Below are positions 13,839-62,200 of a DNA stretch of 64,000 bases, piece by piece (position 1 is the first letter of the stretch; each line of letters begins with the position of its first letter). The translations under genes were made by a program, and so were the position numbers. Location of the stretch: positions 51,150,001-51,214,000 of the forward strand of contig OX597829.1 of the NCBI GenBank assembly GCA_951406725.2, written 5' to 3'. The notes beneath the pieces are model-generated. The model did not search any database, was not told the DNA's origin, and saw only the letters and a program-made list of their open reading frames with translations. The DNA is from Octopus vulgaris (Eukaryota).

Positions 13839-14537
13839 GCTTGTTTTTATGTTCAGTTATAATAAAAGCATATTATTATATTTTGGGATGGTCGTTTTTT
13901 TATATTTTTTTCAACAAATAAACAACCCATACACTGTATAGTCATTCTTCACTTCAAATTTATTTTATTTAATGTTCTTATTTTATGTCATTTGTCTGGA
14001 AATCTTTCGTCACGTGTCCTGTGACCTTTTCAGCAACTCTCCCACATGTCTCCTCCCTGTTTTGTTTAAAATGGACTGAACAGAACAGGAGGAGACACAT
14101 GGGATGGAGAGCCATTGAAGAGGTCACAGGATGTGTGACAAAACAATTTCCAGACAAATGACATAAAATACAAACTAACAAAGCTAAAGTGAATAATGTA
14201 CATGTGTTTTATAGTGCATGTTTATTTGGCAAAAAAATATATATTTTTTTAATCCTTTAGTATTTAAACCGGCCATATCCGGCCAAAATAGCTAATCTGT
14301 TTTATGTTCAAACTGACCAGATCCAGGCTCTCACACCTACCCTACAATGTTATTCTACATTAAGTAATTACAACATCAAGATCTTGAAGATATGAGATAA
14401 TGCATGATTAATTCAAATCAATGGGAATCAATAGGCATTATGTTTGATAGAATAATCTGAACACGAAAGGGCTAATGACCATCCCAAAACATAACAATAT
14501 CTGTTTCAACACATAGTTTCACATCAAGAATCTTGCA
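13839..14537. repeat. Long inverted repeat (fold-back module A); MITE family 1 inserted in the right arm at 14253-14471
   Basis: Perfect 25-bp arms 13979-14003/14146-14170, continuous pairing to an apex near 14070, and outer arms ttttgggatggtc/gaccatcccaaaa. Confidence 0.9.
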
Positions 14538-14736
14538 TAAAAATATAATAAAAACAATTTTACATTAATCTGATGAGCTACTCAATACTTTTGTAGAGTA
14601 TAAATGTATTATTCTAAAACTAGAATATTGTTGACAGTGACTTCAACAGAGACAGTATAAAGCCAAGATTAATTTCAATGCATCACAGTCCAAGGGCTCG
14701 CCAAAATTTCAAAGTCACTCTCAATAATATTTTTGT

Positions 14737-14768
<32 letters not shown>

Positions 14769-14787
14769 TGGATAATAATAATAATTT

Positions 14788-15090
14788 GGATAATTCACCT
14801 TTGGAAACAGGTGGTTCGTTCAACATCCTTAAACAATCCTTATTCAGGGACCTTTTGAGCGAGATGGGCTACTCAACCAGAAGAAGATTCTAACTGGGCC
14901 CCACCTGCAAGGTCATGTGCTGTTGGTATGACATCACCATGCCGCGCGCATATGGTTGTGATGCATGTGCCTGATGTACCCTTATCAGACGGGTAGTCAT
15001 GATGAGTATACTGGGCTTCGTATATTTTACCCCAGTGTCACTTTGATGGCATGCACTGCTCTCTCACTCAAATTAATAATAATAATAATT
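14788..15090 (+). mobile_element. Non-LTR retroelement 3'-UTR with (TAA)n tail, embedded in (TAA)n (other copies ~27020-27512, 28290-28490, 40836-40875)
   Basis: Shared body ending gatggcatgcactgctctctcactcaa(taa)n, preceded by (taa)n in most copies. Confidence 0.7.
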
Positions 15091-15747
15091 ATTAAACAGG
15101 AAAGTGGAAATTTTTTTTGAGTTATTTATTCTCCATTACACATGTTTCATTTGCTAATGGAATCAGAAAGATTTGCATGTTTGGTGGACATGTAAGGAAT
15201 TTCTTATTAGAAAACTGTCAGACAGAGAAAAAATTTTATAATTCATAATCTATCTTAACTGGTCAAAATTTCAAAGTCATTGTCAATAACATTTTTAAGA
15301 ATAATAATATATATCATCATCATTTAACATCTGTTTTCCATGCTGGCATGGGTTGGACAGTTTGACTGAGGACTAGCAAGCCAGAGGCTGCACCAGGCTC
15401 CAATCTGATGTGGCAAGGTTTCTACAGCTGGATGCACTTCCTGACATCAACCCCTCTGAGAGTGTAGTGAGTGTTATTTACATGCCACCAGTCAGAGACA
15501 CTGGTATTAACCATGTTCAGATGGTGCTTTTTATGTCCCACCAGCATGGGAAACCAGTCAGGCAGAACTGGCATCGACAAGTTGGTCAAACAAGAAAACT
15601 TTAACCATATTTTTGTTGAGATACACTGTATTTCAATTAATTTTGAAAATAAGAGTTTAATGAAATAATTTCATCATTATTAAGATGGTTTATAGTAGAT
15701 AAAAATAACAAGTACAAATTATGTGTTATATTTTTTTAATTGGTCAT

Positions 15748-15965
15748 GGCGGCGAGCTGGCAGAAACGTTAGCACGCCGGGCGAAGTGTGTAGTCGTATT
15801 TCGTCTGCCGTTACGTTCTGAGTTCAAATTCCGCCGAGGTCGACTTTGCCTTTCATCCTTTCGAGGTCGATAAATAAAGTACTAGTTTCGCACTGGGGTC
15901 GATTTAATCGCTTTGTCTGTCCTTGTTTGTACCCTCTATGTTTAGCCCCTTGTGGGCAGTAAAGA
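15748..15965 (+). mobile_element. tRNA-derived SINE family 2 with MetaSINE-like central domain (other copies ~11085-11300 -, 25162-25355 +, 27515-27715 -, 27733-27965 +, 28022-28235 -, 40612-40822 -, 40888-41098 -, 42510-42715 -)
   Basis: Head ggcggcgagctggcagaa; B-box-like gagttcaaattcc; central gactttgcctttcatcctttcgaggtcgataaataaagtac. Confidence 0.8.
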
Positions 15966-16012
15966 TATATATATTTTTTTAATTGTATTTTAGTAATTCT
16001 TTTATAATCATA

Positions 16013-16397
16013 CTAGCAGTATCGCTCGGGTTTGTAAGGGAAATAACTATATAAGCATTTTTAGAGTTATAGCCAAAAAATAGCAAAAAAATGCATTCAA
16101 AATGGGGAAAAAATGATGGTAAATTTTTTTTTAAATCGTTGACTCATCGTAGACATTTTTAGAGAGTTACTTCCCTTATATAATAGCGAAAAATTCATTA
16201 AAATGGGAAAAAATGATGGTAAATTTTTTTTTAAATCGTAGACTCATCGTAGACGCGCGCTAATACCCAGAAGGGCTCGATATAAAACACGACTAGAAGA
16301 TACCCGGTTTTGGTTAAACTGCACCGCAAAATGTGGGAGTAGTTAGGAATCTAAATCGTAGGAGACAGACACACAACTTGACTTTTATATATAAAGA
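16013..16397 (-). mobile_element. Non-autonomous Helitron
   Basis: Minus strand starts A|TCtttatatataaaag and ends CTAG|T; near-identical to 45780-46176. Confidence 0.8.
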
Positions 16398-17259
16398 TTT
16401 TTCTTCAAATACATTGCCATTGGTTCAATCAAATTTTGAAAATAATGAAGAATTTAGTAAAATAATTTTGTCATTATTAAGACGAGATTTGGAACTTAAA
16501 TTAAACTGAAATTTTGAAGTAAGGTTTTAATTTAAATATTTAAAAGCAGGAAGTTTGTATTATAGACTCAGGGGTGGTCTCTGATTGGTTGGTATCAAAA
16601 ATCTAAACTGGTAGGGTTTGGCCTGATAGTGATTGTGCCACCGTTTCTAATAGATTGGACGACTACACAAGGTTATGTCTTTGGTTTGTTCTAAGGTTGA
16701 AATGATGAAGACCCTGAGTTTCTGATAGGAAAAAAATAATGAATAAAAACAAGTTTACCCCCATGGGATCTAACTACAGATAAATGAAAGCCTGAAGGGA
16801 AATTGTCATATAATGATGGTTGGAATCTGATACAGACGAAGGATACACAGAAATATCATGCAGAACATTGCAGAGCTCAAATCTTGCCAAATATGCACCA
16901 GTTACTGTATTTAATTGACTAAAATATAATCTTTTATGCAGAATTTGGCCTTGTTTCAAAACAATTTCTCAAGTGAGAAATCAGACTCCACAGTCATAAA
17001 CAATTAGTTGAAGTATTAAATTAGTTTCTTAGCTTTGTTTACATTATCGCTACAGATGCTAAACCCCCACCAACTCTGACAGTCTCTTCTAAGAATTGCA
17101 CATCCTCAACATGGCAAAGACTTCAGAACTGGAAAATACTTTTAAATCTCCTGCAACAATAACAATAATTCTTTACTAAAATTCAGATGAAACTCACAAT
17201 GGTGTACTTGCTCTTACACATGGGATAGAGTTACTACTATTTATTTATCTGAACAGCTA

Positions 17260-17565
17260 TTTACTGTCTTTCTATCTGTTTCTCTTGATATATATGTTTG
17301 TCTGTCAACCTGTCTGTCTTTCTATTCCTCTTTGTTGATCTGTCTCTCTTTATCTTTATGTCTGTTTGTCTATCTGTCTGAGTATCTATCTCTGTTTCTA
17401 TTTGTCTATCTGTCCATCTGCCTATCTATCTGTTTGTTTATCTGTCACCCAGTATGTCTCTCAATCTGGCTATCTGTCTTTCTATTCATCTGCCTATCAG
17501 CTTGTCTGTCTGTCTGTCTGTTTCTGTTGATCTATCTGTTTAATCAGTATAACTGTTTATTTGTC
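17260..17565. repeat. Degenerate (TCTG/TCTA)n tetranucleotide repeat
   Basis: Visible directly in the sequence. Confidence 0.85.
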
Positions 17566-17571
17566 TGTGTA

Positions 17572-18427
17572 CAAAGAGGCACTCAAAAGTAACCAGAAAC
17601 GTTCACAGTGAGACAAGCCCATTGTAATTCAGGTTTCCACTGCTAGGAGCCACTTGATGCGACCCTCAGGCATCAGTCTGCCAATCAGTGGTGTCAGATG
17701 GAGTGCTTCTCCTCTGTTCATCAATTTTCGCAATAGCTGAAACGAAGGAACAGCATGCTTCCATGAAATTCTGTGTTCTGCTGGGGAAAACAGTGGCTGA
17801 AACAGTTGTCATGCTTCAAACCACTTACAAGGACACTGCCATAAGCAAAACACAAGTTTACGAGTGGTTTCCATTCTTTAGGAATGGTCACTTGTTGCTT
17901 CAAAACCAACTTCGTTCAGGGCCACCATCAACCTCCCAAATGAATGAAAACATCCCAAAATTTCATGAACTGATTTTGGAGGACCTTCACCGAACAATTG
18001 ACAAACTTGTTGATATGATTGGGGTGTTCTGGATCTCCTGTCAACAATTTTTGAGCAAGGAATTGTGAATGAAAAGAGTCTCAACAAAATTTGTGCCTCG
18101 TTTGCTCACAGAAAATCAAAAGCACTCATGACTTAATGCATGTTGTGAACTGAAAGAACAGTTGGAAGTTGATCCAAACCATTTTTCAAAGGTCATCACT
18201 GGTGACAAAAGCTGGTGCTATGGAATTTGCTGATGTAGAAGAGGTGAAGAAAAAAGCAGCAAAGACATTAAAAGACATCACTTCGCAAGAGTTCCAGAAC
18301 TGCTTCAAACAGTGGAAAATGCACCTGGACCAATGCCTTGCTTCAAATGGAGAATACTTGGAAGGCGATAAAAATGTAAACATAGAATAAAATTACAAAA
18401 TTCTGGTTTCTTTTGGGTACCACCTTG
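17572..18427 (+). mobile_element. Internally deleted mariner transposon (pseudogenised transposase)
   Basis: EQHASMKFCVLLGKTVAETVVML...VYEWF HTH region, KFVPRLL, VITGDKSWCY, C-terminal QWKMHLDQCLASNGEYLEG. Diverged TIRs caaaagtaaccagaa/ttctggtttcttttg; TA at the left end. Confidence 0.9.
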
Positions 18428-19539
18428 TGTCTCTTACTCTCTCTCTCTCTTTCTATCTATTTCTGTGTCTGTCTCCCTATCAGCAGAGAAAACATTGTCT
18501 AATTCTCTTAAAAACTTACAACTGATAAATAATAGAACATCCTAAACTGCATTAAAAGGAAAAACAAGAGAAGCACCTAATTACTAACATTCCCCAGGCC
18601 TTGTCACCTCTTGTCTTTTCTACTACAATTACTGTTCAGTGGCCTCTGCTCCTGAAAGTTGTCTGACTTCATGCCAGCTCTTCCCTGACATTCATTGTCT
18701 ACTTATCTCTCCTCTTCTTGCCAAGCCATGTTTTTTTTTCCACTAGTTTCTCCCCCCTCCACACACATCACCATCTCCACTCATGGTTATTGCACCACCC
18801 ATTTCATCTTTTAGCTTTTACTTGTTTCAGTCTTTGGACTGTGGCCATGCTGGGGCACCATGTTGGAGGGTTTAGTCAAACAAAACCCTAATACATATTT
18901 CTTTTTAAACTTTGTGTTTACTTTGTTAGTCTCTTTTGCCTAATCACTAAGTTATGTGAATGTAAACAAACTGACACCAGTTGTCAAGCAGTGGTGGAAG
19001 ATAAACACGGAGTGTACTGGGTACTTTTTATGTGGCACCAGCATCGGTGGGGTTGCCAAGTAATTTGCAATACAGGAAAGAACAAGAAAAGGGGAAAAGG
19101 CTCTCTTGACTAAGTGGTATCAGTGGTGGTGGGTAGGGGGTATTCAAGGGGGAGGGGAGGAGATTTTTTAATGCAAGGGATAAGCAGGTGCCCAGTATGA
19201 TTAATATTTCTTTTGGAAATGCCCTCTTATTCAATGGGGGCAAAATCCATCAACTAAACTAATTTTTTTAAAAAGCGATACATACAATCCATGAAAGCAC
19301 TTACATATTTTTTTGTTGTGTTTTTATGTGATTTTTTTCTTTTTTTGACATTTTTGTGTAACAAGTCTAAGAATGGAGATTTGAGTATTTGTATTTCTGT
19401 TAATTGAAACAAACAATCCAGCATAGATTTATTCTAATAATAAATATGTCCTTTTTCACCTTATACACTCACACTTCATCCATCTTACATGTCCTGTCTG
19501 ATGGCTATAAAAACTATCTGAGTTATATATAACCTGGAA

Positions 19540-19975
19540 ACATGTCACACAATATCATCATAATCCATACCACAGCTATCAACCACCCTAAGACACATTA
19601 GATTTATAATTCTATAATCTATTCCATTACATATATCTGTAACCTAAGCTTCAGTTATCCACTATGCCGATTTACTATGACATATTATCTATAATCTCTC
19701 TCAATTATACATGGAGCCCTTTCTTATGACATATCAGACCTATAACCTTCACATCAGTCTACCACTATGATCTCTCTGACACGTTATACCTAAAGTCATA
19801 TACTATAACCATCTCATACATTATTACCATCTCCTGTGATACATCATATCTATTACCAACTCTTCATTTATCTACTATGACCATCTCTATGACACCTCAT
19901 ATCTATAACATACTTCAGTAGTCATTCCACTATAACTCTCTCCTATGATACATCATATCTATAACATCATGCATA
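19540..19975. repeat. Degenerate minisatellite, ~50-57 bp unit
   Basis: Recurring acatcatatctataac...ccactatga...ctatgac motifs. Confidence 0.65.
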
Positions 19976-20841
19976 ACCATTCCATGGCACTTTGTCATTC
20001 AATTCTTTATTCCTTACCATAACATCCATTGACAACCAAGTTCAGTAGTCTCCTTTACTCTAGTGTATTACCTAATATTACCTTTCAGCACTTATTTCGT
20101 CCATTCCTCCTTATCTACTTCAACCGATTCCATTGTTGAATCACGCAAAGTCACACTGATCAATAAAGTATAAAATTAACCGTTTCTGGGGTTTTTCTTT
20201 CTTTCTTTCTTTCTTTCTTTCTTTTTTTTTGTGAGAAGCTAATGGTTTAAGAAAAAGAAGAAAGAAAAAAAAACGAAAAAGAGAGCTAAAGGTTTCATTG
20301 TCTCCTCTGGCTGTAACACTGATTTATTCCATTGCTTAAAAGCATTTTATTCAAACAAAAATAGGTCAGAACTACAGCCACTACAAAGTTGGTTGGTGTG
20401 TCTTGCAAATGATTATAATCATTTTCCAAAGACTTCCCCACTTATTTGTGCATTTCTTTGCTCTTAAACACACACAAACACACACATGAATATAAAAATC
20501 CATGTCTTTTATTATTATTATTATTAATATTATTATTTTCTGTGTTAGATATTAAGTGAGTTATATACCTCTTATCATAATCACCCATTGTCATATTAAT
20601 TGTGGGATTGCTTGGTATCTCATTGATGTTTTTCTGGTTTATATATATTTTTCTCTGTTTGTTTTTGTATTCTTTGCTTTGCCGTACTCTACTAGGCATA
20701 TATCAATGTCATATCAATATATGGCAATTTTCTTTCCTTCTTTTTCTTTCATACATGTCATAAACCGTTATAGTTCAGTGCATACATGATTGATTTTTCT
20801 ACACAATTTGTAGCAACATTTATTTTGTTTCATTTTACATT

Positions 20842-20880
<39 letters not shown>

Positions 20881-23099
20881 GTCCGTGCTGGTGGCACATA
20901 AAAAGCACCAACCAATCGTAGCCGCTGCCAGCCTCCTCTGGCCCCTGTGCCGGTGGCATGTAAAAAGCACCCACTATACTCAGGGAGTGGTTGGCATTAG
21001 GAAGGGCATCCAGCTGTAGAAACACTGCCAGATCAGATGGGACCCTGGTGCAGCCTCCTGGCTTTCCAGATGCCAATTGAACCGTCCAACCCATGCTAGC
21101 ATGGAAAATGGACGTTAAACGAGGATGATGATGATGATGTGTGTGTGTGTATGTATGTATATTCCTAATATACCTTCACAATGAAAATCCTGCTTCACTG
21201 GAACCATCATCATCATCATCATCATTTCCACAATCACTACTGTAACCACCACCACCACCCCTACACTACCTGCTGACATCATTGGCACTGTCATACATGA
21301 CCACCACCACATCATTGTCATCGGCATCATCATCACCACAACCACTACCATCATTATTGCCATTACCATTGTCTTCCTTCTTGTTGTCATTGTTACCTTC
21401 TCAGTTAAAATGCCAAAAATAGCTTCTGCTTGAATTGGCATGAGATTTAGCCATATTGACTATCCAAGGAAAACTCTGCCATTAAGGACTTTGTCTGGAG
21501 TAAGTCTACGTAATGTATGGCATGATGGACACGAAACTCATTAAGGTTAGCTTTAATGAGATGTCCAAAACTCCGGCTCCACAGCTCTGCGTTTTAATCC
21601 TTTAACATTGAAATTGGTCATATCCAGTCCAAACATTCAACTTATCTTATATTCAAATTGGCTACATCCAACCTCTCACACCTATCCTACAATGCCATTT
21701 CTAAAACTAACCAATCACCACAGTGGAATCTCAAAGCTCTGAGATAATGAATAATTAATTGACAATAAAGTGAATAGATAACTATTGCATTTGATAGAGT
21801 AATCTGAATGCTAACGAGTTAATGTTTGATGTTAAATGAGTTACTGAGAGCCCAGAAAATTCTTCAAATTTGGATCAGTCAATTGTAACTTTGTTTTCTT
21901 TTTTATCAATTTCAAAGATCAAAATATTTGTTTGCATATGTACATCTTCCCAAAATTCCAGGTGTGTTTTCTTGTTGTTGAAATTCTATCCTTCTATTAT
22001 TGGTTTTAACCAGAGGCTGTGGTCATGCGGAGGCACCACCATTATTAGCATTAATGCTTGCTTATTTTAGACTGTCTCCTCGGTATATTTTAAATTCAGT
22101 TCCTGTCTTTGGAATTGGTGGTCCTTATCATCATCCTTTAACAGCCGTTTTTCCATGTTGGCATGGGTTGGACGGTTTGACTGGAGCTTCCAAGCTGGAG
22201 AGTTGCACCAGGTTCCAGTCTGATTTAGCATGGTTTCTACAACTGGATGCCCTTTCTAATACCAACCATTTTACAGTGTGTGATGGGTGCTTTTAACATG
22301 GTGCTGCTTAGTAAATTGGACTGAGCTGCCCTTTTTTTTTACATTTCTTACCCTAATGTATGTTCATTTGATATATTAGATGAAAATTGAATTGTTCTTT
22401 GAATACATACATACCTACACCTCATAGATCTCTAATAGATTTTAAAAATTAATTGTTATTCATAACAATAATTTGAACTGAAGAAAGTGCAATGAATTTC
22501 ATTTTAAAAAGCTGAATTTGTTTACAAATCTATAAGTTCCATTTGTACATCACTTGGCATTTTTAATATTTTTTTGTTCACAAAGTAAAAACAGGTTTAT
22601 AAACACATGTATGCAGCTTTCTTCCTTAGTACAATCATGAAAACTGCTTTCAAATTACTTTTGTATTAAGCCAGTGTATTTTATAATATATTTTGTAAAA
22701 ATTTACACAATCCCCTGCAATTTTTAATTTTGCTCTTGTTTTAAATATAGAAATGATTTTGAAAATTAATTTTCTAACTGATGGATAAACGGTTTTAATT
22801 TCATCTTGAATGTCTTGATATTTACTTAACAAGGAAAGTGCCTTGCAGTGTCAAGCTTAAATCATTGTGATGGCTGGTTACATCAACTAAAAATGCAAAA
22901 TCATGTAACCAAACATCATATAAAAAGGTTCTTTCCTCTGGCAGCTCATATTTCTCTTCTAAAAAATCAGGAACAATGTTTTCTCATTTCCAAGATCTAC
23001 TCAAAACCAATCCTTGAAAGCCAGTGCACTTAGCAACGCAAGACAAGTCAATAATATTCCAAATTGAACAATATTCTCTAAGTTCTCATCTGTTTTGTG

Positions 23100-41329: not shown

Positions 41330-41386
41330 CAAATTAAGTGATGAAATAGGATAAAAGGAATTAGGTTAATTGTGCGTGTTTATACA

Positions 41387-41437: not shown

Positions 41438-41930
41438 ATATCAACTTTATAATTCTATATGTTCTCTGTGTGCATGTGCATGAGTGCTTGTGAGGCAGAA
41501 AGATAAGAAATCATAGGACTTATAATCTGCAGTCATTATTCCTATCGGTACTGAACACTTCTGGATTTCTGTGTCCTTGCATGTGTTGCCATATGGTTGA
41601 AGCACTAAAATACGCAAAGTAGGAACAGATTCAACAAGGCAATTCCTCGGTGAATATCAATTTTAGCTGTCACTGAACAAATGTAAATGTGATATTGCAT
41701 TGCTATTATCTATGATAATAATCAAATTGACTTTGTGTGCTTGCATAGATAGAGTTGTAGAATATATGTAAATTTTCTGTGAATTGAGTCAGTGGAGAGC
41801 TTATCGTTGATGGGGGTCATGAATGGTGACGTAGGGACTCTTACAAACCTAGCTAACTTATTGATTGATCAAGTGATTAATCAAACATTTGATTAGTTAA
41901 TTGGTTAAATGTTTAACCAATTGACAAAGG

Positions 41931-41961
<31 letters not shown>

Positions 41962-43046
41962 TTAATGTCTGTTGTCTATGCTGGCATGGGTTGGATGGTT
42001 TGACATGGAGCTAGCCAAGCAGGGAGCTGTCCTGGCTCCGATTGTCTTTTGTGGTATGGTTTCTACAGCTGGATGCCCTTCCTAATGCCAATGTCTTCAC
42101 AGAGTGTGCTGGGTACTTTTTACATGCCACCAGCATGGGGAGGCATTCACACAACACCAGCAAAGGACAAGCTTCCATGTATGGAAGACCATAATTTTAC
42201 TTAACTTGATACATCTTTTCAAGTACAGCAAATCACCACAAGTCCCGGCCCCTTGTCATTTCCTCATTAAAGCCCAGTGTCTGAAGATTTCCTCAGTCAG
42301 TCCAAACATACAAAGAAGTGAAATAGAACCAGTGCATGTTTATTATTGACATAATGATTGTCCTAACATACATTAAAACATGTTTCAACACCGCATTTCA
42401 CATCAAGAATCTTGCAAATCAAATACAAAAACAAAGTATATGGTCATTTCATTGCCTTTATTATCGCTAATTAATGATCATGCAAAAGGTGTACAGACCA
42501 TACAATATATATTGGTTTCAAATTTTGGCACAAGGCCAGCAGTTTCAGGGGAAAGAAGTAATTCAATTACATCAATCCCAGTGTTCAACTGGTGCTTATT
42601 TTATTGGCCACGAGAAGGTGAAAGGTAAGGCTGACCCTCGTGGAATTTGAACTCGCAACATAAAGACAGACGAAATGCTGCTAAGCATTTTCCCCAGAAT
42701 GCTAATGATGCTGTCTACCCATCACTACCCTATAATATTGTTCCTCTTGCAAGCTAATAAAGGAGCCTATCATACAACCTATTCAAAGTAGTAGCTAAAT
42801 TTCCCTCAAATGAGGTCCCACTGCTCCATTATCATTGAAAAAGGAAACATTGGCTGATAATGTTGTCTTGAGTTCCATGCACATGGGATGGTTGAAGCTG
42901 GATTGCCTTTGGTCACAGGGTTTGCTTCATGCATGCAGACTCAATCAATGTCAGTTGGGTTTCAGACGTTTTGGCACAGCCATTCTAGTATCGCTGATTC
43001 AACATTGACTTATTGACATCAGGCATTTTAATGTTTCTCTCATCCC

Positions 43047-44629: not shown

Positions 44630-46905
44630 ATTTTTTATGGATGAGAAAAAGAGAACAGAGAAATTGACATATAGACATTAATTTATTCGAACATAATACA
44701 ATTTTGAACAATATCAAACTCAGTGTCACCTACAATTGTTTCCATGCCCAATTAAATCAATTTGAGAAATTAAATTAAATTGAATTTCCATATCATTAAA
44801 TAGCGTTAATTGGGTATTATATCAAGGGAAGAATTTGATAGAGATGAGCTACAATCTCATGTACTGTTTCACCCTTGATAGACTTAGAAATGTGCGTTTC
44901 AGCACTAATGTATTTTAAAAACTGTTACTTAGGTATATATAAATGCAAATTTGTATAATGCATTTGTCTGTGTGCATGTGTAATGTATTGAAAAACAAAA
45001 CAAAATATCCGTTAGCTTAAACGATATTTCGATACAATTACTTTAAACTAGAAGCTAAAAAACATTATTCCTAATTTACACTATTACTTATGATAGATCA
45101 AAATATCATTAACAGTATTTAATCACTTAAGAAATTTATTATAAGTCATCCAATTGCAATCTAGAAATCATAGTTAAATAATAGAATATCATTATTATTA
45201 TTATTATTATTATTTTAAAAACCATAATTACGTATATGTAATATTTTAATATTTTCATTATGTATTTGTGTGTGTGTGTGTGTGTGTATGTGTGTGTGTG
45301 TGTGTTGAAAGCTACAAGATAATCACGAATCAAAACTGTTTACTAATTATGATAGCTGAATATTACATCATCAATATTGTGTGCAATATATTTGTTTATG
45401 TAATAATGTGAACAGATACACACAAGCTTAATTGAGGAAAGCACTAACATTAGCAAACGAAAATTAATGAAATTAATAAAAATTAAAACCATTATTGAAT
45501 TAATACGTAATATCTTTAACCTTAGATTACCAATTATTTTTTTAAATATATTAATCACAGATTCCTAAGATACATTTTTAAAATATTAAAATCCTTTTAA
45601 CCGTTATATAATATAGTTACCTGTAAATAAAATGGTAAGTCAATATTTACCATTTATTTTATATTTTAATATTAATATGATATCTACTAAAAATTATCTA
45701 ATCTTTATGGTTAAAATTGTTAGTATATTAATCCTGAGATACCACATAAATTTATAGTCCTGGTAACTTTTATATTGTACTAGCAGTATCGCCCAGCGTT
45801 GCTCGGGTTTGTAAGGGAAATAACTATATAAGCATTTTTAGAGATGTAAAGTATAATAGCCATCTCAATATGGCTAACCACAAAGGGTGGGGTGTTACTG
45901 TAGCTTTTTACGTTCTGAGATTTAATAATAAATTTTTAGAGAGTTACTTCCCTTATATAAGCCAAAAATGCATTAAAAATGGGAAAAATTGATGGTAAAT
46001 TTTTTTTTAAATCGTAGACTCATCGTAGACACGCGCTAATACCCAGAAGGGCTCGATATGAATCACGACTATAAGATACCCGGTTTTGGTTAAACTGCAC
46101 CACAAAATGTGGGAGTAGTTAGGAATCTAAATCGTAGCAGACAGACAGCACACAACCTCACTTTTATATATAAAGATATAATGGTAGCTTTTGAAAACAT
46201 ATTATAGGCATGAACACAGGATACCCCCCCTCCTCCTTGTGTTAAGGAGTCTATGTTAGGAATTTAAGATTTGATATAATTCTTCTATGCAAAGAAAACA
46301 AAAGGCATTGCCAATTTTATAGACATTAGCTCTGCTTATTAATTCCCATTCCATAGTAAACATTTTGGTTTTGCTATTTATCTGTGTATCCATTTTCTTG
46401 TCAAAATGAAATGCCTTCCATCTGAGTCTGTGGATGAATTCAGCTGTTTTATGAATTGGGTCCTCTATGTACTCCATTTTAGGTGGAATTGGAATGTCCT
46501 TCAGTAGAAATGTCTACTTCAGTTTGCTCCATTTTATTGGTGGAAACTAATATTCATCTACTTCCGTAGTTGTTTAAATTTAATTAAATCAAGGATATAA
46601 ATCAAGGATATGAATTAAGGATATAAAATCCACAAATGCATTTAACAAATTTGCATTTACATATACACAAGTAACAGTTTTTAAAATACATTGGTTGTTG
46701 AAATGCACATTTCTAAGTCTATCAAGGGTCAAACGATACATCAGAAGGTAGCTCCTTTCTATCAAATTCTTCCCTTGATGTAATACCCAATTAATGGTAT
46801 TTGATACGGAAATTTAATATATTGTTTAGAATTGTATTATGTTCTAATAAATTGATGTTTATATGTCAATTTCTCCATTTTCTTTTTCTCATACATAAAA
46901 AAAAT
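44630..46905 (-). mobile_element. Penelope-like element relic bounded by ~300-bp inverted repeats, with a Helitron inserted at 45780-46176
   Basis: Inverted arms ~44630-44968 and ~46630-46905. ORF 46256-46477(-) fuses a Penelope N-terminal motif (KTAEFIHRLRWKAFHF) to a GIY-YIG C-terminal motif (WELISRA...CFLCIEELYQIL). Confidence 0.7.
45780..46176 (-). mobile_element. Non-autonomous Helitron
   Basis: 5' TC, 3' hairpin cccgagcaacgctggg then CTAG, inserted between A and T. Confidence 0.85.
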
Positions 46906-48028: not shown

Positions 48029-49084
48029 TTCTTTTTTTTTTTGTTCTTTTTTTTTTGTTAAAAATTTTACATTTCATTACATTTTGCATGGTTTCATTTA
48101 TATCCATCATGACATATCTTATTAATTTCTAGATATGCACACACACACACACACACACACACACGCTCTCTTACCTACTGAGCCATTCATTTAATGCATA
48201 TTAAAACATAAGTATTACATTTTTCAAGGCTAATAGTCCAAAAGAATTACAGTGATATTGATGACTCATGTCAGACAGTTAAACATTTAAAATGTGTACA
48301 TTTCTAAAAATAGAAAGCTAAAAAAAATGTCTAGCGCACGTTGCAAATGAAAAGATTAAAATGACAGTTAACCCATTAACGTTAAAACCAGTCATATCTA
48401 GCCAAAATATCCTTCCTGTTTTATGTCCAGACGGACCAGATCCAGCCTCTTACACCTACCCTACAATGTCTTTTTAAAAATATACAAAAATATACAATGT
48501 AAATAAAGAAGAATTACATTTGACAGAGAAATCTGAATGCTAAAGGATTAGACTGGATGATCATGGGAACAGCTCAAACAGGGTTGACCTGGGGTTAAAC
48601 AACAGCAACATATGTTACAAGCCAATGCCAGAACCTCAAAGTGGTTACTCAACTTGCTAGACATAGCAGCCTGATGTTAAAATAATTTGTTTACCATCTT
48701 AACCCTCTAGCATAGTCTGTGTCCATATAGTGTTGGCAAGGGAGATCATTGCTCCCATTTCCAGCCTTATGTGATACTCTTCTCTATACAAGATCAGTGA
48801 CTGTGTGTCGCTTAAAGTATATATAGTGTTTGCGAATGGAGAAAGTTTTCATCAACAGCCAATGATTGTCTCACACTGAGGATGGGTAATCACTTAAGGC
48901 TGGAGATGGGAGCAATGACCTTCCTTGCAAACACTGTATGGACACAGACTGTGTGTTCATAGCCAGCTGGAAAAGATGTTTTTCCTGGGGCTTAAACAAC
49001 AGTAGCATCGTCCTTTATAGGACTGACACGTTGTGTTGGCAAATAAACTTTACTATTCAGTACTGTTACTGCATATCTATCTCT

Positions 49085-53294: not shown

Positions 53295-53362
<68 letters not shown>

Positions 53363-53503: not shown

Positions 53504-53525
53504 TTTTAACAAAAACTGAAATAAA

Positions 53526-53575
<50 letters not shown>

Positions 53576-54346
53576 GATGGGCTTCCACAAAGTTTCTGTC
53601 TTCCAAATTCATTCACAAGACATTGGGCACCATCTTTGTTCTGAAGGGTTAATGAAACCAGTGCGAATCGTAGAATATAACCAAAATGCATATCATATAG
53701 TATTCTTGTTGGAAACATTCTAATGAACCACCTGAAGCCTGGCTTAAGAATGATTCTTGCAATTTTTTCTCTCATCACAGTTGACACTGATGGAAACGGA
53801 TTTTTTTCTCTTTCAGCTTTGTCATAATGGATCTGATAATACATATGTAATACAAATGCATGTTTGTGTGCTTGTATTTATTTTCTATGAAGTTGTCTTT
53901 CTACTGTCATGGTAACAAATTAAGTGAAATAGATAACTGTTTTACAGTTAAATCCTATCTCCCTGCTCTATTATCTCACATTGACGTAAATATATATATT
54001 GCAATCGGAGTTCCATTGCTCTTGACTGCTTCATCTCAGACGAACAATACATGTTGTACCATTTGTCTGTGTGTCATACTGAACGAGAAAGAGAGACAGA
54101 GAAAGAGAGGTTCGCCAACTCTTATCAAACCATCTGACTTCCGCCTGCTGATATAGAAAATGGTAATCAAACGATGATTTCAAATACAGGCTGAATAATA
54201 ACAAAATTATATTAATAAATTCTTCGTTCCATATTCAGTTCCACTGTATGGCACCTTAGACAAGTGTCTTCTACTATAGCCCTGCCCAAATAAAGTCTTA
54301 TGAATGATTGAATTTGATAGATGGAAACTGAGAGAAGCCTGTCATA

Positions 54347-54560
54347 TGAAAAGGTCCTGAAAAGTTCCTGGCTTCAACAGTATGGTGAAAGGCCAAGTTG
54401 GAGGCCCAACATTCCAAGTTCTACAGGGCTTTAAAAAAACTGAAGAACTGCTGTAATAAGTGTCTGAATCTGAGAGGGGAATATGTTAGATAAAATAATA
54501 ATTAACTGGTCCTTTTGTATTTTCTTTTACCCAAACCCAGGAACTTTTCAGAACCTCTTT
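54347..54560. mobile_element. Mariner-derived MITE inserted at a TA inside a SINE
   Basis: TIR ctgaaaagttcctgg/ccaggaacttttcag, TA flanks, residual transposase C-terminal sequence (KCLNLRGEYV). Confidence 0.75.
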
Positions 54561-54703
54561 TATATATGTGTGTGTGTATGTGTCTGTTCCCTACCAATGC
54601 TTGACAACTGGTGTTGGTTTGTTTATATTTCTGTGACTTAGCAATTTGGCAAAAGAAACAAAAAGATTAAATACCAGATTTTTTTTTAAGCCTGAGTACC
54701 TAC

Positions 54704-55045
54704 GAGGTGCTGCCCCAGCATGGCCACAGTGCAATGACTGAAACAAGTAAAAGATAAAAGATATACTGGGATTGATTTGTTCAACTAAAACCCTTCAAGG
54801 TGGTGCCCCAGCATGGCCACAGTCCAATGAGTGAAACAAGTAAAAGATAAAAGATATACTGGGATTGATTTGTTCAACTAAAACCCTTCAAGGTGCTGCC
54901 CCAGCATGGCCACAGTCCAATGACTGAAACAAGTAAAAGATAAAAGGTATACTGGGATTGATTTGTTCAACTAAAACCCTTCAAGGTGCTGCCCCAGCAT
55001 GGCCACAGTCCAATGACTGAAACAAGTTAAAGATAAGATAAAAGA
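54704..55045 (+). repeat. 93-bp tandem repeat (~3.6 units) of the SINE family 1 3' end
   Basis: Unit starts at 54704, 54797, 54890 and 54983. Confidence 0.9.
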
Positions 55046-55166
55046 TTGAAGATATTTTCGCAATTAATTGAAACAAGAAGAGTCTACTTCGTCTGAGACA
55101 TGGTAACAAAAAGCAGTTAAACCAATGCAGAAGTTCCTTTTCTTTCTTCTTTTATTTTCTCTGCAG

Positions 55167-55226
55167 ATTTTCTTAACAGAAGACTATGTTTCCACGATAT
55201 AATTTTCTTTCCTTCTGAGAAACAAA
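55167..55226 (+). CDS. Possible 60-nt symmetric phase-1 exon (DFLNRRLCFHDIIFFPSEKQ)
   Basis: Strong pyrimidine tract plus ctgcAG at 55161-55166; donor-like AA|GTTAGT at 55227; open in the frame required by the 5669 donor. No homology support. Confidence 0.2.
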
Positions 55227-55511
55227 GTTAGTTGAATGACAGAACCCCATAGGAACAACGTAAATTACAAAATCAATCAAGTTCTGAAATGAACATGTGT
55301 TGTATTGATTTGTATATGACTGAATTGGGCTGTGGTGGTGGTGGAGGAGAAGGTGGGGTGAGTGGGGGAATAAAGGTGGGGTGAGTGGGGAAATAAAGGT
55401 TGAAGAAAGTGTTGGCTTGGAGTTTGTGATGATACCAGCCATTCCAGTGTAGCAGAAGATACCAAAGTAATGCCAGAGAGAGTAAATAAAAACAATGAGG
55501 TTAATTATATA

Positions 55512-55728
55512 TCTTTTACTCTTTTACTTGTTTCAGTCATTTGACTGCGGCCATGCTGGAGCACCGCCTTTAGTTGAGCAACTCGACCCCTGGGACTTAT
55601 TCTTTTGTAAGCCCAGTACTTATTCTATCGGTCTCTTTTTGCCGAACCGCTAAGTGACGGGGACGTAAACACACCAGCATCGGTTGTCAAGCAATGCTAG
55701 GGGGACAAATACAGACACACAAACATAT

Positions 55729-55765
<37 letters not shown>

Positions 55766-55923
55766 CGATGGGCTTCTTTCAGTTTCCGTCTACCAAATCC
55801 ACTCACAGGGCTTTGGTCGGCCCAAGGCTATAGTAGAAGACACTTGCCCAAGGTGCCACGCAGTGGGACTGAACCCGGAACCATGTGGTTGGTAAACAAG
55901 CTACTTACCACACAGCCACTCCT
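55512..55923 (-). mobile_element. SINE family 1, young copy
   Basis: Near consensus. Confidence 0.9.
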
Positions 55924-55954
55924 GAGGTTAATTATATATCTTTGTATAATATGT

Positions 55955-56013
55955 GTGTGTGTAGTGACTGCGTGTGTGTGTATATGTGTGTGTATGTGTA
56001 TGTGTGTAGTGAC

Positions 56014-56044
<31 letters not shown>

Positions 56045-56300
56045 AGTGACTGCTTTCTTGTACAACAGCAGAGTCATTGCTATAAAGAATCATTCAAATG
56101 AGTCATTGATAATGCATTGTATGACTCTTGAGTCCAGTCAAAGACTTGCACATTCTATTGCATAATGCACGACTGTGCTGGCTGGCAGAAGGAACAGGTG
56201 CCATAGTATGAATTCTTTTGCTATGCCTTTTCAGTCCTCCAACTGAAGGGCACACCATTCCACATATTGCACATGTTCTGTTGTCAACAATACCTGTATC
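55955..56300 (-). mobile_element. LINE (RTE-like) 3' end encoding C-terminal C2H2 zinc fingers
   Basis: CAICGMVCPSVGGLKRHSKRIH plus a degenerate second finger LCNRMCKSLTGLKSH; tail of three gcagtcacta(ca)n repeats. Confidence 0.6.
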
Positions 56301-56839
56301 ATAATTTACACACTCACACACACATATATACACATGCACACATGCATAAATACATACTTGTGCATATGTGTGAGTGTGTGTATATATCATCATCGTTTAA
56401 CATCTGTTTTCCATGCTGGCATGGGTTGGACAGTTTGACTGAGGACTGGTGAGCCAGAAGGCTGCACCAGGCTCCAATCTGATCTGGCAAGGTTTCTACT
56501 GCTGGATGCCTTTCCGAACACCAACCACTCATATATATACACACACACATATATATATATAATTGTTAAACAGGACAGCAAACACTATATATGTATGTGT
56601 GTGCGTGTACATATACGTATACATTTTGTTTGTTTCTACCATTTGAGCATGGCCATACTGGGGCAGTGCCATGAAGAATTTTAGTCGAACAAATCAAGCC
56701 CAGTATTTATTAGTTTTTAATCCTGGTATTTATTTTATCAGCCTCTTTTGCCAAACTGGTAAGTTACTGGGACATAAACACACGAACACTGGGTGTCAAG
56801 TAGTTGTGGCCGACAATCAAGGACACACACAAACATATA

Positions 56840-56879
<40 letters not shown>

Positions 56880-56883
<4 letters not shown>

Positions 56884-58567
56884 CAGGTAGAAGCACCACT
56901 GATGCTATATTCCTGGTCCGACAACTGCAGGAGAAGTACCTAGCTAAAGATAAACCCCTCTACATAGCTTTTGTAGACTTGGAGAAAGCCTTTGACAGGG
57001 TTCCCCGTTCCCTTATCTGGTGGTCGATGCGGAAACTGGAGATTGAAGAATGGCTAATAAGGGCTGTACAGGCTCTATACAGAGAGGCTGTCAGCAAGGT
57101 TAGGATTGGCAACGAATATAGTGAAGAATTCCGGGTAGAAGTAGGTGTGCACCAGGGCTCAGCCCTCAGTCCCCTTTTATTCATCATAGTCCTTCAGGCA
57201 ATAACAGAGGAATTCAAAACGGGATGCCCCTGGGAGCTCCTCTATGCCGATGACCTAGCTCTCATAGCAGAATCACTACCGGAACTAGAAGAGAAATTTC
57301 GGGTGTGGAAGCAAGGGTTGGAATCAAAGGGCCTTAGAATAAATGTAGCAAAGACCAAAGTATTAGTAAGCAGCAAGAGGTACTCAGCACACATCCCCTC
57401 GGGTAGGTGGCCCTGCTCAACCTGTAGGAAAGGTACAGGTAGAAACTCCATAAGATGCACCCAATGTAAGTTATGGACACATAAGAGGTGCAGCAACATT
57501 AAAGGGAAATTAACAGATAAGATAGCTTTCATGTGCGGCAGATGCACAGGGACAATAGACACAACAGACACTCAGAAAACAGATTCCATCACACTCCAGG
57601 GAGAGAAACTAGAAGTAGTTGATAGTTTCCGCTACCTGGGTGACCAAGTTAGTAGCGGAGGTGGATGCACAGAGAGTATCACCACTAGAATACGAATAGC
57701 CTGGGCAAAGTTCAGAAAGCTCCTACCCCTACTGGCAACAAAAGGTCTCTCCCTCAGAGCAAAAGGTAGATTGTATGATGCATGTGTGCGAACTGCCATG
57801 CTTCACGGTAATGAAACATGGGCTGTGACTGCAGAAGACATGCGTAGACTTGAAAGAAATGAAGCTAGCATGATCCGCTGGATGTGTAGTGTCAGTGTGC
57901 ACGCAAAACAGAGTGTAAGTATCCTGAGAGAAATGCTGGATATAAGAAGCATCAGATGTGGTGTGCAAGAGCGACGCTTGCGATGGTATGGTCATGTGCT
58001 GCGGATGGATGAAGAGAGATGTGTGAAGAAGTGCCACTCCCAAACAGTTGAAGGTATCAGGGGGAGAGGTAGACCCAGGAAGACATGGGATGAGGTGGTC
58101 AAGCATGACCTCAGAGCATTGGGCCTCACTGAGGCAATGACGAAGGACCGAGATCTCTGGAGATATGCTGTGACTACAAAGACCCGGGCTGCTTTCTGCA
58201 GCAATTCCACATACCCCCTACCCATTCTAAGTACCCCGGATCCCCAAAGTACCCTGGATCCCCAAAGTACCCCGATCCCCAAAGTACCCCGGACCTCGTT
58301 GCCCCCGTGCCGCTGACACGTTAAAATGCTCGAACCGATCGTGACGATGCCGGACCCTCCGGCCCCTGTGCAGGTGGCACGTAAAAAGCACCCAATCCAC
58401 TCACGGAGTGGTTGGCGTTAGGAAGGGCATCCAGCCGTAGAAACTCTGCCAGATTCAGACTGGAGCCTGGAGCGGCCCCTGGCTTCCCAGACCCGGTCGA
58501 ACCGTCCAACCCGTGCTAGCGCGGAAAGCGGACGTTAAACGATGATGATGATGATGATGATGATGAT
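56880..58567 (+). mobile_element. Young 5'-truncated RTE LINE: open RT (to stop at 58316) with an internal PHD-like finger, 3' UTR and (GAT)n tail
   Basis: FVDLEKAFDRVPR, GVHQGSALSPLLF, LYADD, FRYLG, RRLRWYGHV, RGRGRPRKTW. Begins directly after a (TA)n tract inside a SINE; the listed ORF start at 56793 runs through that tract. Confidence 0.95.
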
Positions 58568-58777
58568 ATATATTCTTTTATTCATTTCAATCATTTGACT
58601 GTGGCCACGCTGGAGCACCGCCTTTAATCAAACACATCGACCCCAGGACTTATTCTATTGGTTCTCTTTTGCCGAACCACTAAATTATAGGGACATAAAC
58701 ACACCAACATTAGTTGTTAAGTGATTGGGGGGGGGGGGGACAAAGACAGACACAAACATGCACACACAAACACAGAC

Positions 58778-58828
<51 letters not shown>

Positions 58829-59099
58829 TATTCTATCGGCAAGTTTTTGTCGAACCGCTAAGTGACGGGGAACATCAGTTGTCAAGCAATGGTGGGGGTA
58901 GACAAATACATAAATACATACACATACATACATATATTGTCACGATAATACTCAAACTTACATAAATCCAAAAGAAGAAGCACACACTAAGATGTAGACC
59001 AGTTTCTGTCGGAGATGCTCGTCCAAAGTGCTACACAGTGGGACTGAACCCGGAACAACGTGGCTGAGAAGCAAGCTTCTTCCAGCACAGTCACACATG

Positions 59100-59165
59100 T
59101 ACATACATACATACATGTGTATGTATGTATGTATATATATATATATATATAAACACAGAGATATA

Positions 59166-59236
<71 letters not shown>

Positions 59237-59415
59237 ACACAAACACACACAGATATATTTGTTTATATATATATGTATATATATATATATGTGTGTGTAT
59301 ATATATGTGTATATATTATATATGTGTGTGTGTATATATATATATGTTTGTGTATATATTATATATGTTTGTGTATATATTATATATGTGTGTGTATATA
59401 TTATATGTGTTTGTG

Positions 59416-59446
<31 letters not shown>

Positions 59447-59596
59447 TTGTATATATTTATATATATATATATATGTGTGTATACATATATATATGTATAT
59501 ATATATGTATGTATGTATGTGTGTGTGTGTGTGTGTATATATATAAACACACACTGATATATGTGTGTTTATATACATAGAGAGAGAGAGAGAGAG
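59100..59596. repeat. Compound (TA)/(TG) microsatellite
   Basis: Visible directly. Confidence 0.95.
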
Positions 59597-59689
59597 TTTT
59601 GTATATCTTCTAATAATCATATTGTTAGTCTACCTCTGCTTTAGCAAGTGTATGCATGCTGTGTTTGTATGTTGTGTTTTGTACGTTAC

Positions 59690-62200
59690 AGAAGGATGAG
59701 CAACCGTTGTATTTGCGAACCTAGTCTTTGTTATTGTCACAGCTACTGAACAAATGTTCAATTCACATGTGTTGTCGTGTGGTTGGTTAAACGCCAACAC
59801 ACAGCATTTAAACGAGACAACAACTGCTTCACTGAATGAATCTCTCTCTCTCTCTCTCTCTCCTTCCCTCTCTCCCTCTCGCTTTCTATTATCTTCTGTT
59901 GCTGAATGAATGTAAATTTGATATTCCTATCTCACAATAATATCAAATTGACTTTGTGGCCATGTAAATAGAATCGTGTAAAAATAAGTTGAGACTGTGA
60001 TCTACTTTTGACTTCTGGGTCAAAAGAAAGACATTAACACAGCATTCATCTTCCTTTGTAAATAAGCGCGTGCACACACACACACACACACGTTACCTGT
60101 GTAAACCTTATGTCTTACATTTTTTCTTCCTGTTTCAGTCATGATGGGACACCAATTTGAAGGATTTAGTTAAATAAACTGACTATATATATATCATCAT
60201 CATCATTTAGCGTCTGCTTTCCATGCTAGCATGGGTTGGACGGTTCAACTGGGATCTGGGAAGCCAGAATGCTGCACCTGGCTTCAATCTGATCTGGCAT
60301 GGTTTCTACGGCTGGATGCCCTTCCTAACGCCAACCACTCCGTGAGTGTAGTGGGTGCTTTTTACATGCCACCGGCACAGGTGCCAGACGAGGCTGGCAA
60401 ACGGCCACAATTGGATGGTGCATTTTACATGCCACCGGCACAGAGACCAGACGAGGCTGGCAACGGCCATGAGCGGATGGTGCTTTTTACGTGCCACCGG
60501 CACGGAGGCCCGTCGGGCGACTCTAGCAACATCCACGTTCGGATGTTTCACTTACGTTCCACTGGCACTGCTATCACGGCTAAAATTTCCATTGATGTTG
60601 ATCGATTTTGATTCTGATTTCTCACTTGCCTCAACAGGTCTTCACAAGTAGAGTTTTGTGTCCCAAGAAGGAAAGGTATGCATAAGTGGACTGGCTACAT
60701 CCCAGGTAGAGGCCACGGGTTATGGTCTCACTTGTCCTGCCGGGTCTTCTCACGCACAGCATACTTCCATAGGTCTCAGTCTCTAGTCTTTTCCTTGGTG
60801 AGACCTTAAGTTCAAAGGTCGTGCTTCACCACCTCGTCCCAGGTTTTCCTGGGTCTACCTCTTCCATATATAGGTAGGTAGATAGGTATATGTGTGTGTC
60901 TTTGTGTCTCTGTTTGTTCCCTCATCACCACTTGTCAACTGGTGTTGGTGTGTTTGCATCCCCATAATCTAGCAGTTCAGCAAAAGAGACTGATAGAATA
61001 AGTAATAGGCTGGACACCAGCTTAATAACAGCAGTTTTTTTACTAAATTCTTCATTATTTTCAAGATTAATTGAAACAAAGATTGTGTATTTCAACAGTC
61101 CAGAACTGCTATTGTTCTTTTTCCAAAGGTATAGGCGCACGTGTAGCTGTGGTAAGAAGCTTGCTTACCAACCACATGGTTCTGGGTTCGGTCTCATTGC
61201 ATGGCACCATAAGCTAGTACCTTCTACTACAGCCTTGGGCTGACCGAAGCCTTGTGAGTGGATTTGGTAGATGGAAACTGAAAGAAGCCCATCGCATATA
61301 TATATATATATAGGTAGGTATATCTGTGTGTCTTTGTGTGTCTGTCCCCCCATCACCACTTGTCAACTGCAAAAGAGACTGATAGAATAAGTACTAGGCT
61401 TAAAATATATAAGTCCCAGGGTCAGTTTGTTTAACAAAAAACCCTTCAAGGCAATGCCCCAGCATGGCCACAGTCTAATGACTAAAAGATAGAAGATAAA
61501 ACGGGGGCCGTATTGTATTGTTTTCTGAGGGTCACACTGGTTCTATTTCATTTTGTTTTAATACTATTTAGTCAACTAGTTAACTATCATATTGGTTGGC
61601 ACTATTTTTTTTTGTTTCTTTTTTTAAATGTCTCTAAAAAATCTTCCCAGGTCCAATACTTTTAAGGTTATACCTATGTAACATTCAAAGTCACACTGAT
61701 GCCAAATGCTATAATGCACTGAAACCATTTTTCTCTTGAATTGGGCTGCATCAAATATGCATATGAGTCTAGATATGGTAATGGTAATTAATTAATTGCT
61801 TGATTAATCATTTGATCCATCAATCACTTGGTGATTGATCTAGTGATAAGTCAAACACTTGTTTAATTAATTGATTAATCAGTTAACTAGTTAGCTAATT
61901 GGTGCTTTTATTAGTTAAAACGACCCTCCTAAGATTTACTTCTCACAGAATTTCACATCAAGATTCTTGCAAATCAAATGGAAAAGAAAGATTGTGTGTG
62001 TGTGTGTGTGTGTGTGTGTATTTTTCTTTTCTTTGAGTTTTATTTAAGTTCTTCTTGAATGAGCTCGCTAAAAAAGTGATGAGGCTTTTTTGAATTCTGA
62101 GAATTCCTTGTGTTTTTAAATATGTGGTTGAGTTGGCGTGTTGGTTGAATTGTCGATGCCAACACCCAAACGTGTGCATCCATCTATTCACCTAACAAAT
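59690..62200. repeat. Fold-back module C, interrupted by an RTE 3' fragment (60194-60865 -) and SINEs
   Basis: Shared motifs with A and B; internal inverted pairs 61568-61586/61881-61898 and 59791-59820/62108-62139. Confidence 0.6.

What the first reader, a model, noticed from the sequence alone, without database searches (positions are those of the whole stretch)
13839..62200. Family of diverged long fold-back modules repeated along the intron
Seen: sequence outside the recognised TEs recurs in collinear modules A (~13.84-14.54 kb), B (~41.3-43.3 kb) and C (~53.9 kb plus 59.7-62.2 kb). Shared motifs: TTTCACATCAAGAATCTTGCA is identical at 14517 and 42396 and has one mismatch at 61951; ATCAAATTGACTTTGTG is identical at 41721 and 59942; tgattgatc(a/t)agtgat..tcaaaca at 41862 and 61832; caaattaagtga..aatag..ataa at 41330 and 53916. 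A and C are clearly self-complementary with homologous stem bases (ggatggtcgtttt/aatgaccatcc in A, gggggccgtatt/aaaacgaccctcc in C) but unrelated apices, and each carries different TE insertions; B's symmetry is weaker. Exact 17-21-nt islands in otherwise eroded sequence hint at constraint. Inference: either an old, unannotated fold-back transposon family or a tandemly duplicated array of intronic hairpin loci with a conserved base and variable tip. This is the best candidate for an undescribed system in the window.
Basis: partly seen in the sequence, partly recalled or inferred. Interest (0 to 1): 0.7.

Follow-up and report, generated by a model that had tools for sequence, protein, structure and literature searches.

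The report
Worn Penelope retrotransposon ends in octopus
The three hairpin-like modules in this octopus intron are worn-down ends of Penelope-like jumping genes that occur in thousands of copies across the genome, an ordinary and known layout; only a 330-base stretch shared by two of them is local, and it is likely an old duplication.

Summary
The motifs are real, but they are not a local hairpin array. The 21-mer has 605 exact dispersed copies in the genome and the stem-base word 8,405 (reversed controls 0). Both lie at the ORF start of a Penelope-like element (PLE): an intact family in the same genome encodes a 1,309-aa RT + GIY-YIG protein beginning M-T-I-P-K-Y-N-N, and its 3' repeat carries a minimal hammerhead motif. 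A is a fold-back stub (inverted truncated copy + direct copy + one-sided tail) split by a TTAA-bounded repeat. B and C are stubs of an older subfamily; C is a fold-back, B is not. Variable apices reflect variable 5' truncation. Exact islands need no host constraint: 11 of 153 pairs of copies not chosen on the motif share 21 or more exact bases. One remainder: 41445-41769 and 59638-59990 are homologous, not PLE-derived and found nowhere else, likely an old local duplication without detectable constraint. The 41330/53916 motif is marginal. The scan has reported PLE stubs on other octopus DNA several times.

The parts
13866..14074 (-). Module A, inverted 5'-truncated PLE end without tail
   Evidence: nhmmer with profile of dispersed copies, E 2.6e-18 for 14056-13868; self-palindrome centred near 14074
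14075..14246 (+). Module A, direct PLE end, first part; contains a decayed minimal hammerhead motif at about 14110-14155
   Evidence: nhmmer E 8.8e-18; alignment with intact motifs
14247..14475 (.). Unrelated multi-copy element with TTAA-bounded inverted ends, inserted into A
   Evidence: 95% identical to 62350-62576 inverted and 8 or more other copies in the window; ends shown
14475..14557 (+). Module A, PLE ORF start (ATG at 14475) and one-sided tail; 21-mer at 14517 reads F-H-I-K-N-L-A; a stop codon lies just before it
   Evidence: tblastn of P0001 aa 1-21, 86% identity, E 1.8e-4
41445..41769 (.). Non-PLE segment homologous to 59638-59990; holds the 17-mer at 41721
   Evidence: local alignment score 100 vs shuffle maximum 48, 0 of 200; no other genomic copy found
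41785..41931 (+). Module B, subfamily-2 PLE end, first part with decayed hammerhead motif and the third motif (41862)
   Evidence: 861 candidates, 40 scored, dispersed matches at 71-91%; nhmmer E 1e-37
41932..42303 (.). Microsatellite plus high-copy repeat inserted into B
   Evidence: many window copies; contigs of other copies join 41910 to 42312 (table 5)
42304..42451 (+). Module B, second part: ORF start (ATG at 42354) and tail with the 21-mer at 42396
   Evidence: contiguous with first part in L087, L091, L094, L101; tblastn aa 1-28, E 0.037
59638..59990 (.). Second copy of the non-PLE segment, with a (TC)n expansion at 59841-59880; 17-mer at 59942
61505..61829 (-). Module C, inverted subfamily-2 arm in two pieces (61533-61587 and 61785-61829 scored), about 200 bp of unassigned sequence between
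   Evidence: E 2.3e-4 and 7.6e-7
61830..61993 (+). Module C, direct subfamily-2 arm truncated downstream of the hammerhead, with tail (21-mer at 61951), followed by (TG)n
   Evidence: nhmmer E 1.5e-11

Best explanation
Modules A, B and C are decayed 3' ends of Penelope-like retroelements of two subfamilies, likely inserted independently by the element's RT and GIY-YIG endonuclease and now drifting neutrally. Shown: the shared words are the first codons of the PLE ORF; the repeat carries a minimal type I hammerhead motif upstream; genomic copies end either after about codon 8 or after about codon 27, and inverted pairs carry the longer end (tail) on one side only. Inferred from the Anolis PLE biochemistry (PMC11167929): those two end points are two internal start sites of reverse transcription; cDNA synthesis usually stops early, at a variable point, and a second copy is made in inverted orientation, which gives a constant stem base, a variable apex and an asymmetric tail. 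The tail is alike between subfamilies likely because it is coding and read by the element's own protein, which is selection on the element, not on the host copies. The 330-bp B/C segment is a separate, likely old local duplication.
For: 605 exact dispersed 21-mers, both strands, control 0. 8,405 exact stem-base words, control 0; among the first 100 listed I count 16 minus-then-plus pairs 0.1-3.2 kb apart and no plus-then-minus pair within 5 kb. 12 of 28 independent loci show an inverted arm stopping 9-20 bases short of the 21-mer. 4 of those 28 carry the element's C-terminal coding piece at 61-83% identity. Intact 1,309-aa ORF whose first 21 residues match A at 86%; RT PF00078 E 5e-4 and GIY-YIG PF01541 E 3.6e-4 on sub-regions. 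Of 21 young loci with ends in both orientations, 20 have one terminal tail, 1 none, 0 two. 9-12-nt duplications in 5 of 9 two-armed loci vs 1 of 72 mismatched pairs. Subfamily 2 is tied to the same protein: remnant at E 1.2e-9 on the same strand about 1.7 kb upstream of its end in L164. Hammerhead stem I differs between subfamilies and stays paired. Local density is ordinary: 3 in 64 kb vs 7 in the flanking 200 kb. Layout, ORF start inside the repeat, N-rich insert and 9-10-bp duplications are described in PMC3846280.
Against: Pfam hits are below the curated cut-offs and the whole protein gave none. Rfam found no hammerhead in the window or in 10 loci; the motif is assigned by eye against PMC4209133. 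A shows no clear target duplication (4 nt). Only 1 of 4 extended subfamily-2 loci gave a coding remnant. B shares 9 derived bases with C, more than with any of 28 other copies (next 7), a weak hint that B and C are not independent, though the tree does not join them. The tail does not fold better than shuffles (z 1.1 to -0.3), unlike the stem-loop reported for the Anolis start site. Two of three window copies keeping the exact 21-mer is at the lucky end of the distribution.
Confidence: 0.93

Rival explanations
1. B and C are one old local duplication that took in both the 330-bp segment and the subfamily-2 PLE end (or the PLE carried the segment in trans), later rearranged; A is independent.
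For: Same order of segment then PLE end in B and C; segment is two-copy and local; B shares most derived bases with C, 9 vs next 7 of 28; similar divergence of segment and PLE part; trans-mobilisation by PLE repeats is reported (PMC3846280).
Against: C has an inverted arm and lacks the hammerhead, B the reverse; about 1.5 kb lies between segment and PLE in C; downstream flanks unrelated; tree does not group B with C; C shares as many or more changes (9-13) with six other copies.
Confidence: 0.2
2. Non-autonomous DNA transposons (MITE, fold-back, or Helentron-type with asymmetric inverted repeats).
For: Long inverted arms, no ORF in the window copies, asymmetric ends.
Against: Ends are the ORF start of an RT-encoding element; arm length is variable from 0.1 to over 3 kb and includes coding sequence; duplications vary from 9 to 12 nt.
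Confidence: 0.03
3. A host-maintained array of intronic hairpin loci (microRNA-like or editing substrates) with conserved base and variable tip.
For: Exact 17-21-nt islands; A and C can fold back.
Against: Thousands of dispersed copies; no local excess; 11 of 153 pairs of copies not chosen on the motif share 21 or more exact bases; A has a stop codon and a broken hammerhead core; B is not a hairpin; in organism E the 17-mer of B has a 2-base deletion and the segment diverges like its flank (p 0.13).
Confidence: 0.03

Closest known systems
Insertion units of endonuclease-positive Penelope-like elements: pseudo-LTR + adjacent inverted 5'-truncated copy + one-sided tail (PMC8557442, PMC3846280; passages read)
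   Same: Inverted truncated copy, tail on one side, ORF start inside the repeat with the tail extending the N-terminal codons, short variable target duplications, N-rich insert in the ORF, bias for (TA)n.
   Different: Tail is about 60 nt here against 30-40 nt in the papers; window copies are old stubs with nested insertions.
Neptune/Nematis-type PLEs
   Same: C-terminal GIY-YIG, DK(S)G motif, CX4CxxC linker before the endonuclease and CCHH motif in P0001 (definitions); young copies sit in (TA)n.
   Different: No tree against reference clades was built, so the clade is read from motifs only.
Minimal type I hammerheads of metazoan PLEs (PMC4209133; parts 1-2 of 4 read)
   Same: Short stem I, longer stem II, extra base between positions 9 and 10.1, 2-bp stem III with 2-nt loop.
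   Different: Subfamily 2 has U at core position 3 with G at 8 (23 of 27 copies have U3); the young intact family has C at position 9. Cleavage untested; window copies are degenerate.
PAc (Poseidon of Anolis; PMC11167929; parts 1-2 of 4 read)
   Same: Two end points inside the ORF start delimit the tail; hammerhead near the start codon.
   Different: End points are about 25 and 85 nt into the ORF, not 111-118; hammerhead lies about 130 nt upstream of the ATG; no stable stem-loop predicted in the tail.

Membership tests
Penelope-like elements (EN+) | Single ORF with RT and C-terminal GIY-YIG endonuclease in the parent element | tested here: met
   P0001, 1,309 aa; PF00078 E 5e-4, PF01541 E 3.6e-4 (both under cut-off); motifs visible; 161 relatives; subfamily 2 linked by one remnant, E 1.2e-9
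Penelope-like elements (EN+) | Partial tandems forming pseudo-LTRs and inverted 5'-truncated partner | tested here: met
   L061-L076; 12 of 28 motif loci; A and C in the window
Penelope-like elements (EN+) | Tail at one end only | tested here: met
   20 of 21 two-orientation young loci have one tail, none two; A and C have it on the right arm only
Penelope-like elements (EN+) | Minimal hammerhead motif in the repeat | tested here: met
   Core boxes and paired stems in young and old subfamilies, 89% of cells paired vs 24-41% when slid; subfamily-2 stem I paired in 19-24 of 27. Rfam models do not detect it; degenerate in A and B, absent in C
Penelope-like elements (EN+) | Short variable target-site duplication | tested here: inconclusive
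   Met in 5 of 9 other loci (control 1 of 72); not seen for A; four (TA)n loci were left out; B and C not scored
Penelope-like elements (EN+) | Telomerase-like RT by phylogeny; clade (Neptune, Nematis, Penelope/Poseidon) | not tested
   No reference set fetched; CX4CxxC linker points to Neptune/Nematis; PDB search gave no significant match
Penelope-like elements (EN+) | Self-cleavage and retrotransposition activity | not testable with these tools
   Six full-length ORFs are 99.4-99.9% identical, which suggests recent activity only
MITE / fold-back DNA transposon | Symmetric terminal inverted repeats and fixed-length duplication | tested here: not met
   Ends asymmetric by about 60 nt; duplications 9-12 nt; arm length variable
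Clustered host hairpin or microRNA loci | Local low-copy array, conserved across species | tested here: not met
   605 and 8,405 dispersed exact words; no Rfam family at gathering score; no excess conservation in organism E for the B segment

The most novel reading that the evidence does not exclude
The PLE end in B or C carried 330 bp of host intron to a second site 18 kb away in trans, and the copy was kept as a regulatory element of the zinc-finger gene; alongside, octopus PLE subfamilies run hammerheads with altered cores (U3-G8 in subfamily 2, C9 in the intact young family) that still cleave when helped by the element's protein.
Probability: 0.1. Interest if true: 0.45.

Novelty: new member of a known kind. 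Interest (0 to 1): 0.15.

Why it matters
Mostly it removes a false lead: long hairpins with a conserved base and variable tip in octopus introns are a routine product of Penelope-like insertion and should be masked before calling new RNA loci. A modest by-product is an intact, nearly identical young family with a full 1,309-aa ORF and two sharp end points, a usable second system for testing the internal-initiation model shown so far for one lizard element.

Tried and rejected
Minus-strand micro-exon reading of the 21-mer (AG acceptor-like context): dropped once 605 dispersed copies were found. MicroRNA or other Rfam family: none at gathering score in the window; sub-threshold microRNA hits in loci are generic hairpins and microsatellites. 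Stable stem-loop in the tail: not better than shuffles. The 330-bp segment as 3' part of subfamily 2: its profile found nothing in 59 subfamily-2 loci. The segment as a dispersed repeat: DNA searches returned only the query (they did not even find the other copy, so sensitivity is low); the 17-mer has 3 other exact matches with unrelated flanks, control 1; a 24-nt shared pattern with 2 mismatches gave 5 other matches vs control 4. A lone 17-mer repeat is expected by chance in this window (mean 1.6 in 30 shuffles); the homology rests on the longer alignment. No RNA holder on record was listed; one run guessed to be RNA covers parts of B, which shows nothing on expression. Organism E gave no cover of 59895-60094. 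Stem I indices were mis-set and were recounted. My hammerhead scan of the whole window returned no motif and had no positive control. Protein search with the upstream host exon found nothing.
Full report
Observation. The quoted 21-mer, 17-mer and stem words are at the stated places. A is a real palindrome (13979-14170, E 6e-29) and C a weak one. The third motif is present with a 3-base spacer; the fourth differs by an indel and is marginal (7 of 200 shuffles). Flanks of A against B or C, and of B against C downstream, align at chance level. The window is G000:C16:51150001-51214000; a protein from the same genome is 99% identical to a named Octopus vulgaris entry.

Copy number. The 21-mer has 303 + 302 exact matches across the genome, reversed control 0. 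The stem-base word, written with four degenerate positions, has 4,225 + 4,180, control 0. Among the first 100 listed matches I count 16 minus-then-plus pairs 0.1-3.2 kb apart and none in the opposite order within 5 kb. The third motif belongs to a second dispersed subfamily (861 candidates, 40 scored). Profiles found 3 such loci in the window and 7 in the flanking 200 kb; two further weak hits of another repeat (7 mismatches in the 21-mer) were left out. So there is no local array. About 100,000 copies genome-wide would follow from this one region; that figure is an extrapolation.

What the repeat is. In 30 fetched loci (the first 30 of 605, 28 independent) the 21-mer lies about 20 bases from one end of a repeat; 12 of 28 have an inverted arm that stops 9-20 bases short of it, and 4 of 28 carry a coding piece with a GIY-YIG signature. 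A search with that piece gave 8,112 candidates, 145 scored, six with open frames of 1,310-1,312 codons. About 130 nt upstream lies a minimal type I hammerhead motif; stem I has different but paired sequences in the subfamilies. Rfam does not detect it. Six full-length ORFs are 99.4-99.9% identical. Subfamily 2 is tied to the same protein by one remnant in 4 extended loci (E 1.2e-9).

Anatomy in the window. A is an inverted arm (13866-14074) plus a direct arm (14075-14557) with tail, split by a TTAA-bounded repeat at 14247-14475. Its hammerhead core is broken and its reading frame has a stop from CGA to TGA, a change seen in 6 of 29 loci. B is a single direct end (41785-42451) split by an insertion. 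C is an inverted arm in two pieces plus a direct arm with tail, both truncated downstream of the hammerhead. A and C have unrelated apices because they are different subfamilies cut at different points.

Mechanism. Shown here: two sharp end points inside the ORF start; of 21 young loci (among 46 examined) with ends in both orientations, 20 have one tail, 1 none, 0 two; 9-12-nt duplications in 5 of 9 two-armed loci against 1 of 72 control pairs, four (TA)n loci left out. From the literature: PLE insertions are 5'-truncated, often have an adjacent inverted copy and a 30-40-bp tail at one end (PMC8557442, passages); the repeat includes the first codons and the tail extends them (PMC3846280, passages); in the Anolis element the tail lies between two internal RT start sites (PMC11167929, parts 1-2 of 4); minimal hammerheads mark the repeats (PMC4209133, parts 1-2 of 4). 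Inferred: the same process made A, B and C. How the inverted copy arises is not settled in those papers.

Constraint. In 29 subfamily-2 loci chosen on 41790-41930 and not on the motif, 18 have a tail; 3 match the last 20 bases exactly and 5 with one mismatch; 11 of 153 pairs share 21 or more exact bases and 26 share 17 or more. These are the best matches to B, so they lean towards less diverged copies. The word has no CpG and is shared between subfamilies. Host constraint is not needed, though two exact copies among three is at the lucky end.

The remainder. 41445-41769 and 59638-59990 are homologous (score 100, shuffle maximum 48; 215 of 293 aligned columns under a gap-permissive alignment). 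The segment is not subfamily-2 sequence, has no third copy in 264 kb and none in genome searches of limited sensitivity. In organism E the B copy has at least 13 substitutions in 340 bases against 24 in 361 in nearby unique intron (p 0.13; the table was cut, so 13 is a lower bound) and a 2-base deletion inside the 17-mer; the first 200 bases of the C copy differ at 14 sites in one low-depth contig. An old local duplication is the likely origin (about 0.7); a very old dispersed repeat is not excluded. Whether the PLE end was part of the duplication is open: B shares 9 derived bases with C, next best 7 of 28, but the tree does not join them.

Novelty. PLEs are known in O. vulgaris, with 31 recently active families and an old expansion reported (PMC13282606, passages; its library and supplements were not seen and may hold these families). 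Searches (listings only) showed no paper devoted to these particular families or their hammerheads. Earlier notes of this scan, read after my reading was formed, report the same kind of stub on other octopus DNA. Verdict: real sequence, known kind, low interest.

Noticed in passing
window 4548-5668 (+) and G000:C16 about 51,279,550 (L120:5556-6410): Likely host gene on the + strand: a Q/N/A-rich coding exon in the window (splice sites read from sequence only) and, about 124 kb downstream, an exon with a C2H2 zinc finger (atlas score 0.96). Resemblance to ZNF541/TRERF1-type proteins is recalled, not tested; that the two exons belong to one gene is assumed.
   Followed up: partly
L061-L066 (e.g. 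G000:C17:6331772-6335698): Young PLE family with intact 1,309-aa ORF, copies 99.4-99.9% identical, inserted in (TA)n; its hammerhead core has C instead of A at position 9.
   Followed up: partly
L083-L111; relic at window 41800-41850: Subfamily-2 hammerhead has U at core position 3 opposite G8 in 23 of 27 copies; A also has U3.
   Followed up: partly
window 44631-44967 and 46632-46902: Inverted repeats of about 270-330 bp at 88-89% identity in two blocks, about 1.7 kb apart, with no other copy in the window or fetched loci; probably a separate DNA transposon remnant.
   Followed up: no
window 48711-48953: A 240-bp imperfect palindrome (72%), unrelated to the PLE ends studied.
   Followed up: no
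window 56778-58316 (+): 512-codon open frame of an RTE-like LINE reverse transcriptase fragment (family name from recalled motifs); further pieces at 60722-60866 and 63404-63819.
   Followed up: no
window 54705-55036: Tandem array of 3.6 units of 93 bp at 97% identity, derived from a common short repeat.
   Followed up: no
L003:319-633 and L070:1-1497: Pieces of other PLE families (a distinct GIY-YIG; a 499-codon frame) lie next to members of this family.
   Followed up: no
flanks, window-relative -90160, -27125, -17600: A third subfamily with the same ORF-start design, three near-identical tails.
   Followed up: no
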